Origin: a virus
DNA length: 64,000 nt
Direction: 5' to 3' (one strand)
IMG/VR virus record: IMGVR_UViG_3300032093_000012
Location: 103,476 to 167,475 of that record
Part shown: positions 4,519 to 11,989 of the stretch, one piece after another
How positions within the stretch are numbered: position 1 is the stretch's first letter
Layout: the number at the start of each line of letters is the position of its first letter
Translations under genes and position numbers: made by a program
Notes under the pieces: generated by a model
Database searches by the model: none
The model's input: the letters and a program-made list of their open reading frames with translations, nothing else
Told to the model about the DNA's origin: nothing

Positions 4519-4802
4519 GTAAGTATCGTTTAGAGGTATCTCATTGGACCCGTAGCCGTGATGGGGATGATTGGGTTGACTCAGAGTATTGGGTTAACTT
4601 TCAGTCTCTATCAGAGGGCATGGAGCGTATTGAGAGGATCTCCGATCCCTTGAACAGGAGTCTTATAGAGGTACGTCTCTACAACATGACTGATAGTAAG
4701 GACCTCGTTTACAGGAAAGACTTTATCTCAGGGAAGGTGGAGGATTATACTACTATCCCTGATTTCGATTATCACAACAAGGAGTATGACAATGGTAAGT
4801 AA
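4515..4802 (+). CDS. hypothetical protein
   Basis: ATGA overlap. Confidence 0.65.
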   Translation: MSKYRLEVSHWTRSRDGDDWVDSEYWVNFQSLSEGMERIERISDPLNRSLIEVRLYNMTDSKDLVYRKDFISGKVEDYTTIPDFDYHNKEYDNGK

Positions 4803-8022: not shown

Positions 8023-8098
<76 letters not shown>

Positions 8099-8785: not shown

Positions 8786-8862
8786 GCGCGTGTGACGGAA
8801 TTGGTATACGTATTAGTCTTAGAAACTAAGTTTTGCAGGTTCAAGTCCTGCCATGCGCACCA
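8786..8862 (+). tRNA. tRNA-Leu(UAG), short variable arm
   Basis: loop CTTAGAA, CCA. Confidence 0.9.
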
Positions 8863-8868
8863 TAAATT

Positions 8869-8981
8869 AGGTTCACTACAGCATATAGACATGATAATAG
8901 GAAAGTTCCGGTGTACAATTCCGGAGGACCTAAGGGTCTTAGTGTAATAGGCTAGCACGTCCTAACCTAAGTGTGAACCTG
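8869..8981 (+). ncRNA. array unit 1: Y-RNA-like, permuted tRNA-like core
   Basis: AGGTTCAC/GTGAACCT closing stem plus TACAGCA; inside: T-arm-like, closed acceptor-like, D-arm-like hairpins. Confidence 0.7.
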
Positions 8982-8990
8982 CATAGTTTT

Positions 8991-9109
8991 AGGCTATCTA
9001 CAGCATATCTTTCGCCTTGTAAGCCGTAGGTCGTTGGTTCGAATCCAACTAGGAGCTCTTTGCTTCTATAGCTCAGCGGATAGAGCAACGTAAATGCATA
9101 GCCTGTTGA
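8991..9109 (+). ncRNA. array unit 2: Y-RNA-like, circularly permuted tRNA-Thr(UGU) core
   Basis: AGGCTAT/ATAGCCT stem plus TACAGCA; anticodon loop, T-arm, closed acceptor stem, D-arm in permuted order. Confidence 0.8.
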
Positions 9110-9118
9110 AAATAAATG

Positions 9119-9146
9119 TTTACTTAATAAATCTTTATGGTATTAT
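9119..9146 (+). promoter_or_regulatory. internal promoter for units 3-5 and the DUF2828 gene
   Basis: TTTACT-N16-TATTAT with extended TG. Confidence 0.55.
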
Positions 9147-9162
9147 CAAGTTATAGAGTTTA

Positions 9163-9226
9163 AGGATCCGTACAGCATACTCGCCGTAAGGCACTTTTAT
9201 TGGAAAAAGCAAAGGGATCCTGTTGA
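9163..9226 (+). ncRNA. array unit 3
   Basis: AGGATCC/GGATCCT stem plus TACAGCA, GCC-GTAA-GGC hairpin, 3' GTTGA. Confidence 0.7.
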
Positions 9227-9231
9227 GTTTA

Positions 9232-9365
9232 AGATTGACCATACCGCAAAACATTTGACTCTTAGAGTCTTACAGCACTGATACAACTTTGCGAAGTTGT
9301 TATCCACGTGGATAGTTTCGAGGGTACACCACGTTAAAAAAGGAAAGTAGAAGTCAATCTGTTGA
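9232..9365 (+). ncRNA. array unit 4
   Basis: AGATTGAC/GTCAATCT stem plus TACCGCA; three internal hairpins; 3' GTTGA. Confidence 0.7.
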
Positions 9366-9369
9366 GTTT

Positions 9370-9426
9370 AGATTCAGTTCCGCATACATTACAGTCTCGA
9401 AAAACTGACAAAGTTGAATCTGTTGA
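9370..9426 (+). ncRNA. array unit 5
   Basis: AGATTCAG/TTGAATCT stem plus TTCCGCA; CAGT-CTCGAAAA-ACTG hairpin; 3' GTTGA runs into the RBS. Confidence 0.7.
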
Positions 9427-9441: not shown

Positions 9442-10875
9442 ATGACTACTTTTGTAAATGCTGTTGTTAATCAGTCTGCTCGTACTGAGAACGGGATGAA
9501 GGCTCGTCAGAATACTGCTAACGCACTTACTGACTTGTTTTTCAAGATCGGTGCTATGCGTGGCCAAAACGTAATCCCTGCTTGGACTGCAGCTCGCGTG
9601 CAAGATCCTGACTTAGCAGCTCGTGTTGCTCTGTGGGCACGTGACGTTCGTGGTGGGGCTGGCGAACGTAAGATCTTCCGCGATATTCTTGTTGATCTCG
9701 CTAACACTGACGCTTCTCAAGCAGCTGCTTTGGCACATAAGGTTCCTGAGCTTGGTCGCTGGGATGACCTACTTGTTCTCGTTGGTACTCCAATTGAAGA
9801 AGTAGCATTCTTTCGGATCAAGTGTGCCCTTGAAGATGAAAACGGTCTCTGCGCAAAGTGGATGCCTCGTCAGGGTGAAGTAGCTGCAAAGCTGCGTAAC
9901 TATCTTGGCTGGACTCCAAAGTTCTACCGTAAGCGTCTGGTTGAGCTGACTAAGGTTGTCGAGACTCAGATGTGTGCTAAGGACTGGGATAACATCAACT
10001 TCAGTCATGTTCCTTCTGTTGCATCTGCACGTTACAAGAAGGCTTTCGCTCGTCATACTGAAAAGTATAAGGAGTGGGCAGCTGCGCTTGTTTCTAAGGA
10101 TCCAGAAGTGCGCGAATCTGTAAAGGTTAACGCTGGTGCAGTGTATCCTTATGATGTATTGAAGGGTTTGTATAACGGTTATCATACTAACTATGATAAG
10201 GCAAACTACGATCACATCGTAGCGCAGTGGGAAGCACTTCCTAACTATATTGGCGATGCAAGCATCTTGCCATTGGTTGACGTTTCTGGATCTATGACTT
10301 CATCTGCGGGTGGTTATAGCTCTAAGTCAACTACTACATGTCTTGACGTAGCTGTGTCTCTTGGACTGTATCTTGCAGACAAGAACAAGGGTAAGTTCAA
10401 GGATACGTTCTTGACTTTCTCTAGCAAGCCTCAGCTGATGCACCTCAAGGGTAATATCCTTGATAAGCACCATCAGATGTGCACTTCTAAGTGGGAGATG
10501 AATACAAATCTCCACGTTGCTATCCAGAAGATCCTCGATGTAGCAATCGAGGGTTCTGTGCCTCAGGAAGAGATGCCTTCAATGCTTCTTATCCTGTCTG
10601 ATATGCAGTTTGATATGTGTACTAATTATGACGATTCTGCTATGCAGATGATCGCTCGTAAGTATGCTGATGCTGGTTATGTCGTGCCTAATATCGTGTT
10701 CTGGAACTTGAATGCACATGACAATGTGCCTGCTCGTTTCAACGATAAGGGTGTTGCGCTCGTGTCTGGTTTCTCACCAGCGATCGTCAAGGGTATCCTT
10801 GCCGCTGATCTTGATGACTTCACACCAGAAGCCATCATGCTAAAGACGATCATGAGTGATCGCTATGACTACTAA
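9442..10875 (+). CDS. DUF2828-family protein with C-terminal vWA domain (TROVE/Ro60-like architecture)
   Basis: recalled family motifs RDVRGGAGER, GRWDDL, AKWMPR, YRK, VPS; MIDAS DVSGS and SDMQFD; AAGGAG RBS. Confidence 0.85.
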   Translation: MTTFVNAVVNQSARTENGMKARQNTANALTDLFFKIGAMRGQNVIPAWTAARVQDPDLAARVALWARDVRGGAGERKIFRDILVDLANTDASQAAALAHKVPELGRWDDLLVLVGTPIEEVAFFRIKCALEDENGLCAKWMPRQGEVAAKLRNYLGWTPKFYRKRLVELTKVVETQMCAKDWDNINFSHVPSVASARYKKAFARHTEKYKEWAAALVSKDPEVRESVKVNAGAVYPYDVLKGLYNGYHTNYDKANYDHIVAQWEALPNYIGDASILPLVDVSGSMTSSAGGYSSKSTTTCLDVAVSLGLYLADKNKGKFKDTFLTFSSKPQLMHLKGNILDKHHQMCTSKWEMNTNLHVAIQKILDVAIEGSVPQEEMPSMLLILSDMQFDMCTNYDDSAMQMIARKYADAGYVVPNIVFWNLNAHDNVPARFNDKGVALVSGFSPAIVKGILAADLDDFTPEAIMLKTIMSDRYDY

Positions 10876-11368: not shown

Positions 11369-11989
11369 ATGGAAGATTTTTTAAACGCTGTTGAGAGCAG
11401 TCAACACTGTCAAAGAAATTGGGACTTAAGTAGAGAGATTGATCCAGAACATATCAAGATATTTGAAGAAGTAGTAAAGAATGTACCTAGTAAACAAAAC
11501 ATAGCTTATTATAAAGTACATTTTATTACTAACAGAAATATTATTGAAGAAATATATCAATGGACAATGACTGAGAGCTCTGAAGACACAGACTTTTATA
11601 ATCCTCAAGTATTAGCAAATTTGCTTGTAGCATTTGAAGCACATTGGGATACAAGCAAAGATGGAAGAGGTGAACGTATAATCGAAAGAACTATAAAAAC
11701 TATAGATTATAATGGATACACTATCAACGTTGATAGACATCAATCAATAGGAATAGCTTCAGGTGTTCTAGCTTTGATAGCAAACTATCTTGGTTATAAG
11801 ACTGGTTTTTGCAGATGTTTTAAACAAGATCCAGTTAATAACATAATTAAATCTGAAAATAATATTGATATGCTATTAGGAATAGGATATCCTAAAAATG
11901 ATAAACCACATACTGTACATCATATGTTAAGTATGGTAAATGTAGAACCAATTCCTAAAACTGAGATACCTATAATTAAGCTACCTTAG
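11369..11989 (+). CDS. nitroreductase-family protein
   Basis: CQRNW, PSKQN, LGYKTGFC and IGYP motifs. Confidence 0.75.
   Translation: MEDFLNAVESSQHCQRNWDLSREIDPEHIKIFEEVVKNVPSKQNIAYYKVHFITNRNIIEEIYQWTMTESSEDTDFYNPQVLANLLVAFEAHWDTSKDGRGERIIERTIKTIDYNGYTINVDRHQSIGIASGVLALIANYLGYKTGFCRCFKQDPVNNIIKSENNIDMLLGIGYPKNDKPHTVHHMLSMVNVEPIPKTEIPIIKLP

What the first reader, a model, noticed from the sequence alone, without database searches (positions are those of the whole stretch)
8991..9109. Circularly permuted tRNA-Thr(UGU) carried as cargo in array unit 2
Seen: the order is GC-CTTGTAA-GCCGT (anticodon loop and 3' stem), AGGTC (variable), GTTGG-TTCGAAT-CCAAC (perfect T-arm), TAGGAGC-TCTTT-GCTTCTA (7-bp acceptor stem closed by a loop, no CCA), TA-GCTC-AGCGGATA-GAGC (D-arm), then A-ACG. 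Joining the last ACG to the first GC rebuilds a normal arm, ACGGC-CTTGTAA-GCCGT. The tRNA is therefore opened in the 5' strand of the anticodon stem, where the array handle attaches. Established: YrlA RNAs show T-acceptor-D order. Inference: a non-chargeable tRNA mimic that still presents an anticodon loop, possibly a decoy for anticodon nucleases or modification enzymes. A permuted-tRNA precursor is also possible, but an intact Thr(UGU) already exists at 8023.
Basis: partly seen in the sequence, partly recalled or inferred. Interest (0 to 1): 0.85.

Follow-up and report, generated by a model that had tools for sequence, protein, structure and literature searches.

The report
Scrambled threonine-tRNA mimic on Ro60-like handle
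This phage small RNA is a complete threonine tRNA with its ends sealed and its anticodon stem opened into a conserved stem, probably the docking site for the Ro60-like ring protein encoded next door; it is an uncatalogued relative of bacterial Y RNAs that keeps a real anticodon loop.

Summary
Window 8991-9109 holds, in order: anticodon loop plus 3' stem strand, variable loop, T arm, a 7-bp acceptor stem closed by a loop, D arm, then ACG.

- **tRNA identity.** After in-silico re-permutation ARAGORN calls it tRNA-Thr(UGU). It is 62/72 identical to a genuine cyanophage tRNA-Thr.
- **Family.** In 90 related units from uncultured phages, the handle, T, acceptor and D helices covary strongly. The tertiary 15:48 pair covaries, and so does the anticodon-like hairpin.
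- **Anticodon loop.** Across 27 distinct loops, U33 and a purine at 37 are kept while the "anticodon" varies freely.
- **Unpermuted form.** Cronobacter phage S13 and Synechococcus phage BUCT-ZZ01 carry normal tRNAs with encoded CCA. In the clearly parsed cases the same handle sits as a closed hairpin after nucleotide 29.
- **Partner protein.** The adjacent gene is Pfam DUF2828/DUF7788, with no TROVE hit, yet it is predicted to fold like Ro60.

Best reading: a Y-RNA-like tRNA mimic that partners a Ro60-like protein. It works like YrlA but fails YrlA membership, having no GNCGAA motif and scoring 37 bits against a cut-off of 69. "Non-chargeable" and "nuclease decoy" remain untested.

This scan has noted the same handle/DUF2828 RNA family before on other phage DNA. 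I found no paper describing it.

The parts
8991..8997 (+). Handle, 5' strand (AGGCTAT), preceded by conserved UUU (8988-8990)
   Evidence: Pairs with 9098-9104. All 7 handle pairs show changes on both sides in 90 units and 99.7% of cells are paired. Consensus UUUAGG in 115 distinct units.
9001..9005 (+). Conserved CAGCA motif just inside the handle; presumed protein-recognition bulge
   Evidence: 98-100% invariant in the 90 tRNA-like units, and C93/A77/G97/C92/A97% in 115 units of any cargo. GCAT 9003-9006 can pair with ATGC 9094-9097.
9014..9027 (+). Anticodon-arm remnant: GC (nt 30-31), loop CTTGTAA (nt 32-38, anticodon UGU), GCCGT (nt 39-43)
   Evidence: Sequence read. The hairpin columns covary in the family: 61.7% paired against 44.4% in shuffles, 0/500. 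The loop signature U33/R37/A38 is kept.
9028..9032 (+). Variable loop AGGTC (nt 44-48); C48 at 9032
   Evidence: C48 pairs with G15 (9076). The 15:48 pair covaries as G:C 37, A:U 24, U:A 12 in 90 units.
9033..9049 (+). T arm GTTGG-TTCGAAT-CCAAC
   Evidence: The helix is 100% paired, with 4 of 5 pairs showing double changes.
9050..9068 (+). Acceptor stem (7 bp, one G-U) closed by the loop TCTTT; no CCA
   Evidence: All 7 pairs show double changes in the family. Closing loops are mostly 3-6 nt.
9069..9087 (+). U8-A9, D arm GCTC-AGCGGATA-GAGC, A26
   Evidence: All 4 pairs of the D helix show double changes.
9088..9090 (+). ACG (nt 27-29), pairing in trans with CGT 9025-9027 to complete the anticodon stem
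   Evidence: Trans pairing in the family averages 1.83 consecutive pairs against 0.65 +/- 0.10 in shuffles. Covarying triplets are seen.
9098..9109 (+). Handle 3' strand ATAGCCT plus conserved tail GTTGA
   Evidence: CCUGUU is 83-94% conserved in 115 units. In the unpermuted forms the same letters make the hairpin tip, CC-UGUUA-AGG.
8865..9425 (+). Five tandem handle units (8869-8986, 8991-9109, 9163-9226, 9232-9365, 9370-9425). The finding is unit 2.
   Evidence: Repeat families D1-D3 and inverted repeats I8, I16, I21, I22. Model R1 also matches unit 1 and unit 3.
9442..10875 (+). Gene for a 477-aa Ro60-like protein (Pfam DUF2828 + DUF7788; PHROG 850 'RNA-binding protein')
   Evidence: The AlphaFold model's best full-length PDB matches are phage phiLo Ro60 (9kop, 9l5y), D. 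radiodurans Rsr (2nvo) and Xenopus Ro (1yvr).

Best explanation
Unit 2 is a stable small RNA of about 120 nt, a Y-RNA-like tRNA mimic.

**Build.** Its two ends pair into a conserved 'handle': UUUAGG plus 4 variable pairs, a CAGCA bulge, an A-rich 3' strand and CCUGUU. The interior is a full tRNA-Thr(UGU) body in circularly permuted order. The acceptor end is sealed by a 5-nt loop. The chain is opened between nt 29 and 30 of the anticodon stem.

**Fold.** The body folds into a tRNA L-shape. The anticodon stem is assembled from a 2-bp hairpin stacked on 3 trans pairs, so a normal 7-nt anticodon loop is displayed next to a three-way junction with the handle.

**Function (inferred).** The handle is the docking site for the Ro60-like ring protein encoded 333 nt downstream. 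The tRNA body recruits or occupies tRNA-binding factors, and it stabilises the RNA, as proposed for bacterial YrlA.

**Origin.** It arose from a handle-bearing tRNA-Thr, probably through a tandem duplicate, by sealing the acceptor end and opening the handle tip.

**Shown:** the anatomy, the tRNA identity of the body, covariation of all helices and of the 15:48 tertiary pair, the Ro60-like predicted fold of the neighbour, and co-occurrence of handle and gene.

**Inferred:** expression, processing, protein binding and function.
For: - Anatomy was read.
- ARAGORN calls the re-permuted sequence tRNA-Thr(tgt).
- It is 62/72 identical to a real phage tRNA-Thr, against 51/72 to this phage's own tRNA-Thr.
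- Rfam YrlA matches end to end, E 1.8e-6.
- In 90 homologous units, 98.6% of cells are paired and 22 of 23 pairs change on both sides.
- The Levitt pair 15:48 covaries and was not part of the model.
- The anticodon hairpin covaries on an alignment that was not fitted to it.
- 41 of 44 re-permuted relatives are called tRNAs.
- Natural unpermuted forms score as Rfam tRNAs at 40.9-56.9 bits. In BUCT-ZZ01 the handle is a 41-nt insert after nt 29, and its linker sequences closely resemble those of unit 2.
- The protein model's best full-length matches are Ro60 structures.
- Handle units were found in about 70 of 80 loci chosen by the protein.
- 4 of 5 genomes chosen by the RNA, whose fetched locus lacked the gene, encode the protein elsewhere.
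- Phage Ro60 is known to bind adjacent Y-like RNAs (PMC12135203).
Against:
- The protein has no Pfam TROVE hit and no sequence match in the PDB. The model is of moderate confidence (pLDDT 72.7, TM about 0.56).
- The handle lacks the GNCGAA / CGAA motif through which known Ro60 proteins are thought to read Y RNAs.
- The MFE fold of the single sequence does not form the split anticodon stem, and its z-score is only -1.3.
- The 2-bp hairpin would be unstable unless it stacks on the trans pairs.
Confidence: 0.75

Rival explanations
1. Bait or decoy. The displayed anticodon loop makes the RNA a substrate mimic for host anticodon nucleases or other tRNA-targeting defences. The Ro60-like particle titrates or captures them, protecting the phage's real tRNAs.
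For: - A canonical loop architecture is maintained across the family: U33 in 23/27, purine 37 in 27/27, A38 in 24/27.
- The hairpin covaries.
- The element lies inside a 21-tRNA array.
- Phage tRNAs are known to counter tRNA-cleaving defences (PMC10264068, PMC11555353; titles and abstracts seen).
Against: - The 'anticodon' triplet is not conserved: about 24 triplets in 27 distinct loops.
- Many relatives replace the arm by a bulge or a plain stem. 15 of 93 have a trans stem only.
- No nuclease or defence partner has been identified, and no experiment exists.
Confidence: 0.12
2. Two-piece, CCA-tailed and possibly charged tRNA mimic. RNase P cuts 5' of G1 (9062) in the acceptor loop, the 3' piece is trimmed and receives CCA, and the result is a nicked tRNA-Thr held together by the acceptor stem and the handle.
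For: - It has a 7-bp acceptor stem, the feature that makes M. smegmatis YrlA an RNase P and CCA-adding substrate in vivo (PMC4201824).
- 8 of 93 permuted relatives keep NCCA at the start of the acceptor loop, where about 1.5 would be expected by chance.
- The unpermuted relatives encode CCA.
- G1:C72, C2:G71, G35 and U36 are present. These are ThrRS identity elements as recalled from memory for E. coli.
Against: - The loop of unit 2 is only 5 nt, with no CCA and no leader.
- Most relatives have 3-6-nt closing loops.
- S. Typhimurium YrlA is not cleaved (PMC4201824).
Confidence: 0.1
3. Permuted tRNA gene. The handle is removed and the ends are ligated, as in the circularly permuted tRNA genes of Cyanidioschyzon, to give a working tRNA-Thr(UGU).
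For: The re-permuted sequence is a good tRNA-Thr. The 3' part precedes the 5' part.
Against: - The handle is conserved in sequence and is shared with units whose cargo is not tRNA-like.
- No bulge-helix-bulge is seen at the junction.
- No RtcB or Rnl2-type ligase was detected in the 99%-complete genome. The Rnl1 search had no valid control.
- A normal tRNA-Thr(UGU) exists at 8023-8098.
- Relatives have the handle attached at other points or lack the anticodon arm.
Confidence: 0.04
4. Non-functional debris: a decayed tandem duplication of tRNA-Thr, or a dimeric-tRNA artefact (T arm of one tRNA and D arm of the next).
For: It sits in a tRNA array. Chen et al. warn that tandem tRNAs can mimic YrlA.
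Against: - The two acceptor strands are complementary, 5 nt apart, with no CCA or spacer between them.
- The flanks are the conserved handle, not tRNA halves.
- 90 relatives keep every helix through compensatory changes.
Confidence: 0.03

Closest known systems
YrlA Y RNAs of bacteria and mycobacteriophages (Rfam RF02553; Chen et al. 2014, PMC4201824)
   Same: - A small RNA encoded next to a Ro60-type gene.
- The 5' and 3' ends pair into a protein-binding stem.
- The interior mimics tRNA in T arm, closed acceptor stem, D arm order.
- The 15:48 Levitt pair covaries.
   Different: - No GNCGAAN0-1G motif; CAGCA plus CCUGUU instead.
- Scores 37.2 bits against the gathering score of 69.
- The partner protein is DUF2828/DUF7788 rather than Pfam TROVE.
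- It keeps a true 5-nt variable loop and, upstream of it, an anticodon arm with a canonical 7-nt loop.
- Unpermuted, CCA-ended versions exist.
- Units occur in arrays of five or more.
Thermus phage phiLo Ro60 with Yrl1/Yrl2 (PMC12135203; PDB 9KOP, 9L5Y)
   Same: A phage-encoded Ro60-fold ring with small RNAs encoded just upstream. It is the best structural match to the protein model.
   Different: The phiLo RNAs were identified by a CGAA bulge, and I saw no tRNA-like body reported for them. Sequence identity of the proteins is 16-19% in the structural alignment.
M. smegmatis YrlA (PMC4201824)
   Same: A 7-bp acceptor stem within a permuted tRNA-like domain.
   Different: It is shown to be cut by RNase P and to gain CCA; nothing is known for unit 2. 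I saw no anticodon-loop-bearing arm described for it.
Circularly permuted tRNA genes of Cyanidioschyzon merolae and other algae (recalled from memory: Soma et al. 2007)
   Same: The 3' portion of a tRNA is encoded upstream of the 5' portion.
   Different: Those genes are matured through a circular intermediate by the eukaryal/archaeal splicing machinery at a bulge-helix-bulge and yield working tRNAs. Here the junction is a conserved protein-type handle in a bacterial virus, and no ligase gene was found.
Handle-bearing tRNAs of Cronobacter phage S13 (annotated tRNA-Ser and tRNA-OTHER) and Synechococcus phage BUCT-ZZ01
   Same: The same handle motifs. Where I parsed the junction (both BUCT-ZZ01 RNAs and the second S13 RNA), the insertion lies after nt 29. 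In BUCT-ZZ01 the linker sequences closely resemble those of unit 2 (TAAAAACG against TAAATG on one side, ATCTTTTC against ATCTTTC on the other).
   Different: Normal tRNA order, free acceptor ends with encoded CCA, and the handle closed by a loop. They pass the Rfam tRNA threshold.

Membership tests
YrlA (Rfam RF02553; Chen et al. 2014) | tRNA-like domain in the order T arm, closed acceptor-like stem, D arm | tested here: met
   The helices covary in 90 relatives, and the 15:48 pair covaries.
YrlA (Rfam RF02553; Chen et al. 2014) | Score at or above the Rfam gathering threshold (69 bits) | tested here: not met
   37.2 bits, E 1.8e-6, full model length. No match in the gathering-threshold scan.
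YrlA (Rfam RF02553; Chen et al. 2014) | GNCGAAN0-1G Ro60-binding motif near the 5' end | tested here: not met
   8987-9013 has no CGAA. The family-wide conserved motif is CAGCA.
YrlA (Rfam RF02553; Chen et al. 2014) | Encoded within 4 kb of a Ro60 (TROVE-domain) orthologue | tested here: inconclusive
   The gene starts 333 nt downstream and its product has a predicted Ro60-like fold. However, it hits DUF2828/DUF7788 and not TROVE, even at E 10.
YrlA (Rfam RF02553; Chen et al. 2014) | Bound by Ro60/Rsr; modified by TruB and DusA | not testable with these tools
   Needs immunoprecipitation and modification mapping.
tRNA (Rfam RF00005) | Cloverleaf in native 5'-3' order scoring at least 29 bits, or called by ARAGORN | tested here: not met
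   18 bits for 8993-9057. ARAGORN finds nothing in the native sequence.
tRNA (Rfam RF00005) | Cloverleaf with the invariant positions after re-permutation | tested here: met
   ARAGORN calls tRNA-Thr(tgt). It is 62/72 identical to a real tRNA-Thr. U8, A14, G15, G18G19, A21, U33, C48, G53, T54-T55-C56, A58 and C61 were read. An Infernal score could not be obtained for a built sequence.
Circularly permuted tRNA genes (Cyanidioschyzon type) | 3' part of the tRNA encoded upstream of the 5' part | tested here: met
Circularly permuted tRNA genes (Cyanidioschyzon type) | Bulge-helix-bulge at the junction, cut by the splicing endonuclease, then ligation to a working CCA-ended tRNA | tested here: not met
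   By inspection, the junction is a 7-bp stem with an asymmetric internal loop. No RtcB or Rnl2 ligase was found in the genome. Maturation itself cannot be tested here.
Ro60 / Rsr (TROVE + vWA ring), for the neighbouring protein | HEAT-repeat ring plus C-terminal vWA domain | tested here: met
   Foldseek full-length matches: 9kop (E 6.7e-8, TM 0.56), 9l5y, 2nvo, 1yvr. vWA domains match the C-terminal half. The model pLDDT is 72.7.
Ro60 / Rsr (TROVE + vWA ring), for the neighbouring protein | Sequence-level TROVE domain (Pfam PF05731) | tested here: not met
   Only DUF7788 and DUF2828 are found, even at E up to 10. phmmer against the PDB finds nothing.

The most novel reading that the evidence does not exclude
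Phages with a DUF2828 Ro60-like protein run a previously undescribed class of tRNA/Y-RNA chimeras. These are whole tRNAs of many anticodon identities, in both normal (CCA-ended) and circularly permuted form, tethered through a handle grafted into the anticodon stem. The displayed anticodon loop, and possibly a charged acceptor end, lets the particle intercept host factors that attack or read tRNAs, such as anticodon nucleases. Unit 2 would be the threonine-UGU bait of this phage.
Probability: 0.12. Interest if true: 0.9.

Novelty: new variant of a known kind. Interest (0 to 1): 0.7.

Why it matters
The purpose of the tRNA-like domain of bacterial Y RNAs has been an open question since 2014. 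Three features of this family bear on it.

- The mimic is complete. It has a canonical anticodon loop and a covarying tertiary pair, so its resemblance to tRNA is not partial or accidental.
- The same handle is grafted at the same site into otherwise normal, CCA-ended tRNAs of cultured phages (S13, BUCT-ZZ01). This gives tractable systems in which to ask what a Ro60-type ring does with a tRNA.
- The partner protein family (DUF2828) is present in 711 phage records, among them phages of Escherichia, Salmonella, Vibrio, Listeria and Staphylococcus. It is still labelled as a domain of unknown function.

The work also shows that some oversized 'tRNA' annotations in phage genomes are really these chimeras.

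Tried and rejected
- **Protein by sequence.** phmmer against the PDB gave nothing, and Pfam at E 10 gave no TROVE hit. Only the fold search linked the protein to Ro60.
- **Near-identical phages.** blastn of the array against cultured phages found only a 45-nt match to a tRNA-Thr. No near-identical cultured phage is held.
- **Paper supplements.** The supplementary tables of Chen et al. are not held, so I could not see which phages they listed.
- **CAGCA/UGUUG pairing.** I considered a pairing between CAGCA and the 3' UGUUG. I rejected it because variants CUGCA and CCGCA occur with an unchanged 3' side.
- **Promoters and terminators.** Matches are at chance level, 7 against 6.6 expected. The promoter-like site at 9119-9146 therefore carries no weight.
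- **Closed-handle search.** My first regular expression for closed-handle tRNAs missed the real cases because of greedy matching. It was redone.
- **Recurrent capture.** I tested whether each unit was captured from the tRNA of matching anticodon. Only 9 of 44 re-permuted units have a same-anticodon tRNA as best match. The window's clade is the clear case (60-62/72 to tRNA-Thr); for most others, drift of the loop is as good an explanation.
- **RNA ligases.** Searches of the genome found none. The Rnl1 control did not ring in any genome, so that search is uninformative.

Full report
**1. What is there**

The window is the last 64 kb of a 167-kb, 99%-complete uncultured phage record. It carries T4-type replication genes and 21 tRNA genes on the + strand.

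Five tandem units follow directly after tRNA-Leu(UAG), which ends at 8862. They lie at 8869-8986, 8991-9109, 9163-9226, 9232-9365 and 9370-9425. Each is closed by a 7-8-bp stem whose sequence differs between units while the flanking motifs are shared.

The array ends 16 nt before a 477-aa ORF at 9442-10875. The finding is unit 2.

Exact coordinates are given in the parts list.

**2. Is the interior a permuted tRNA?**

- In native order nothing calls it a tRNA: ARAGORN finds none and the Rfam tRNA model gives 18 bits.
- I joined ACG (9088-9090) to GC (9014-9015) and opened the acceptor loop. This gives a 72-mer that ARAGORN calls tRNA-Thr(tgt), with or without an added CCA.
- The 72-mer is 62/72 identical over its whole length to the genuine tRNA-Thr(UGU) of Synechococcus phage S-H25.
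- The anticodon stem differs from S-H25 by one compensatory pair (G29:C41 against C29:G41). One base of that pair lies at the 3' end of unit 2 and the other near its 5' end.
- The 72-mer is only 51/72 identical to the phage's own tRNA-Thr at 8023. It is therefore not a recent copy of that gene.
- The usual invariant positions (U8, A14, G15, G18G19, A21, U33, C48, G53, T54-T55-C56, A58, C61) can be read.

**3. Relatives**

The protein retrieved 80 related phage loci with 62-91% identity. A pattern made of the handle plus a T loop retrieved 119 more stretches.

A covariance model of unit 2 and 11 relatives, containing only the handle, T, acceptor and D helices, found about 120 tRNA-like units. 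It also found more than 100 units that share only the handle.

On the 90 best units (alignment A4):

| Measure | Observed | Shuffled or slid control |
|---|---|---|
| Cells paired | 98.6% | 67.5% |
| Pairs changed on both sides | 22 of 23 | 16.5 |
| Covariation score | 0.79 | 0.19 shuffled; at most 0.12 slid |

That alignment is fitted to those four helices, so two tests on features outside the model are more telling.

- **Tertiary Levitt pair 15:48** (G 9076: C 9032 in unit 2). It appears as G:C 37, A:U 24 and U:A 12 times. 83% of cells are paired against 52.5% in shuffles, 0/500. This is direct comparative support for a tRNA-type D-loop/variable-loop contact.
- **Five columns on each side of the 7-nt loop.** 61.7% of cells are paired against 44.4% in shuffles. 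Covariation is 0.289 against 0.128, 0/500, even though a third of the rows lack this arm.

**4. The anticodon arm and the break point**

I parsed 93 units with T, acceptor, D order:

| Architecture upstream of the variable loop | Units |
|---|---|
| Self-contained 5-bp hairpin with a 7-nt loop | 22 |
| Split stem as in unit 2 (2-4-bp hairpin completed by trans pairs from just after the D arm) | 21 |
| Trans stem only (the classical YrlA layout) | 15 |
| Fits none of these strict rules | 35 |

- Trans pairing averages 1.83 consecutive pairs against 0.65 +/- 0.10 when the 3' segments are shuffled among units.
- Hairpin pairing averages 2.17 against 0.68 +/- 0.09. The choice of variable-loop length slightly favours the observed values.
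- Within the split class the trans triplets covary: ACG:CGT (5 units), CCG:CGG, CGC:GCG, GAG:CTC, CTG:CGG and CTT:AAG.
- Among 27 distinct loops closed by at least 3 pairs, position 33 is U in 23. Position 37 is a purine in all 27 and position 38 is A in 24. Positions 34-36 are close to random, with about 24 different triplets.
- 41 of 44 re-permuted units are called tRNAs, with at least 18 anticodons. My parse imposes cloverleaf features, so this result is not fully independent.
- CTTGTAA is identical in the window, L004, L020, L034 and L025, although their acceptor stems differ at most positions.

The loop is thus kept as an anticodon-type loop. Its 'anticodon' is not conserved family-wide.

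**5. The unpermuted twin**

Downstream of the homologous gene in Cronobacter phage S13 lie two oversized genes, annotated tRNA-Ser (121 nt) and tRNA-OTHER (113 nt). Synechococcus phage BUCT-ZZ01 has two similar unannotated RNAs.

- They are ordinary tRNAs with free acceptor ends and encoded CCA. The handle is present as a closed hairpin.
- I could place the insertion after nt 29 in both BUCT-ZZ01 RNAs and in the second S13 RNA. I did not resolve the anticodon arm of the first S13 RNA.
- Three of the four pass the Rfam tRNA threshold, at 40.9-56.9 bits.
- In BUCT-ZZ01 the 41-nt insert sits between ACG and GC-CTGTTAA-GC-CGT-AGGTC. Its linkers (TAAAAACG and ATCTTTTC) closely resemble those of unit 2 (TAAATG and ATCTTTC).
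- At least a dozen more such closed-handle tRNAs occur in the metagenomic loci. Their hairpin tip reads CC-UGUUA-AGG, which is the fusion of the open handle's conserved ends.

Unit 2 is therefore the circular permutation of a natural RNA type. The acceptor end is sealed and the handle tip is opened.

Other attachment points also exist:

- the anticodon arm placed 3' of the D arm (for example L046:2546-2673);
- normal order with the handle at the acceptor end (L022:885-1006, L020:1193-1320).

Eight of 93 permuted units still carry NCCA at the start of the acceptor loop. This fits an origin from tandem tRNA copies.

**6. The neighbour**

- The ORF hits Pfam DUF7788 and DUF2828, and PHROG 850 'RNA-binding protein'. 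It does not hit TROVE.
- It has no sequence match in the PDB.
- An AlphaFold model built from 24 homologues has pLDDT 72.7 and pTM 0.68.
- The model's best full-length PDB matches are Thermus phage phiLo Ro60 (9kop, E 6.7e-8, TM 0.56; 9l5y), D. radiodurans Rsr (2nvo) and Xenopus and human Ro60. vWA domains match the C-terminal half.
- tblastn finds the protein in 711 cultured-phage records.
- Handle units were found in about 70 of the 80 loci chosen by the protein.
- 39 of 119 loci chosen by the RNA contain the gene within the fetched stretch.
- Of five larger records where the fetched stretch did not contain it, four encode it elsewhere. The fifth is a 51%-complete fragment.

**7. Mechanism**

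By analogy with Ro60 and Y RNA, the most likely working is as follows. All of these steps are inferred.

- The array is transcribed with the tRNA operon and/or the gene. It lies on the same strand with no convincing terminator between them.
- It is cut between units.
- Each unit's handle docks on the Ro60-like ring.
- In unit 2 the tRNA body gives a nuclease-resistant fold and a surface for tRNA-binding proteins.

The supporting analogies are these:

- Y RNA tethers Rsr to PNPase.
- YrlA is modified by TruB and DusA (PMC4201824).
- phiLo Ro60 binds the upstream Yrl RNAs and host PNPase (PMC12135203).

'Non-chargeable' is not safe, because M. smegmatis YrlA with a 7-bp acceptor stem is cut by RNase P and gains CCA in vivo. 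The decoy idea is attractive in a tRNA-array context but has no direct support.

A cut-and-ligate route to a working tRNA is unlikely for three reasons. The handle is conserved and is shared with cargo that is not tRNA-like. A normal tRNA-Thr(UGU) exists at 8023. No RtcB or Rnl2 ligase is encoded.

**8. Comparison and novelty**

The RNA works like YrlA but fails two defining tests, the Rfam threshold and the GNCGAA motif. Its partner is not a sequence-level TROVE protein. No Rfam 15 family covers the handle.

I found no paper on DUF2828-linked RNAs.

Earlier notes of this scan describe the same handle/DUF2828 family on many other phage genomes. They agree with what I derived independently here.

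What this unit adds:

- the clearest tRNA identity of any unit examined (Thr-UGU, 86% identical to a real tRNA);
- the split anticodon stem at 29/30;
- the demonstration that the same graft site is used in natural unpermuted tRNAs.

Noticed in passing
window 8865-8985: Unit 1 of the array matches the model weakly (30.7 bits). It shares its handle and layout with a second tRNA-like class in relatives (L019:2566-2691, L024:1462-1584, L025:2568-2699). That class has a T-like loop TGCRAAT, a short closed acceptor-like stem, a D-like arm, and in relatives a full anticodon-type hairpin.
   Followed up: partly
L003:1574-1958 (minus strand; own genome G000:C1, about 39.1-39.5 kb, outside the window): The phage encodes a permuted (two-piece type) tmRNA. 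Rfam alpha_tmRNA scores 111 bits and tmRNA_permuted 107.5 bits. ARAGORN gives the tag ANDNAPFAMAVAA. It lies next to tRNA-Arg(TCT) and tRNA-Ile(TAT).
   Followed up: partly
L205:4396-4638 (Cronobacter phage S13, NC_028773.1 132703-132945): The two genes annotated 'tRNA-Ser' (121 nt) and 'tRNA-OTHER' (113 nt) are tRNAs that carry the conserved handle hairpin. The insertion is clearly in the anticodon stem in the second; I did not parse the first. A permuted-type unit follows at 4650-4793.
   Followed up: partly
L046:2546-2673, L062:963-1090, L152:6264-6390, L115:6653-6779; L022:885-1006, L020:1193-1320; L007:2820-2919: Other ways of joining the handle to a tRNA body. In some the anticodon arm follows the D arm, so the break is in the variable region. 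Some are in normal D, anticodon, T order with the handle at the acceptor end. Some are minimal units with only an anticodon arm and a T arm.
   Followed up: partly
L114:5230-5363, L116:1536-1662, L109:4729-4860 and five others: 8 of 93 permuted units keep NCCA at the start of the acceptor closing loop. This looks like the junction of two tandem tRNA copies, and it hints at RNase P and 3' processing into two-piece RNAs.
   Followed up: no
window 9110-9162: A 53-nt AT-rich spacer separates units 2 and 3; the other units are 4-6 nt apart. It contains a promoter-like match at 9119-9146, but such matches are at chance level in this region.
   Followed up: partly
window 8786-8862: The tRNA-Leu(UAG) just before the array is only about 74-77 nt long and has a short variable loop, which is unusual for a bacterial-type leucine tRNA.
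   Followed up: no
window 11369-11989: A 206-aa ORF lies between tRNA-Tyr and tRNA-His, just after the Ro60-like gene. It has no Pfam or PHROG match.
   Followed up: no
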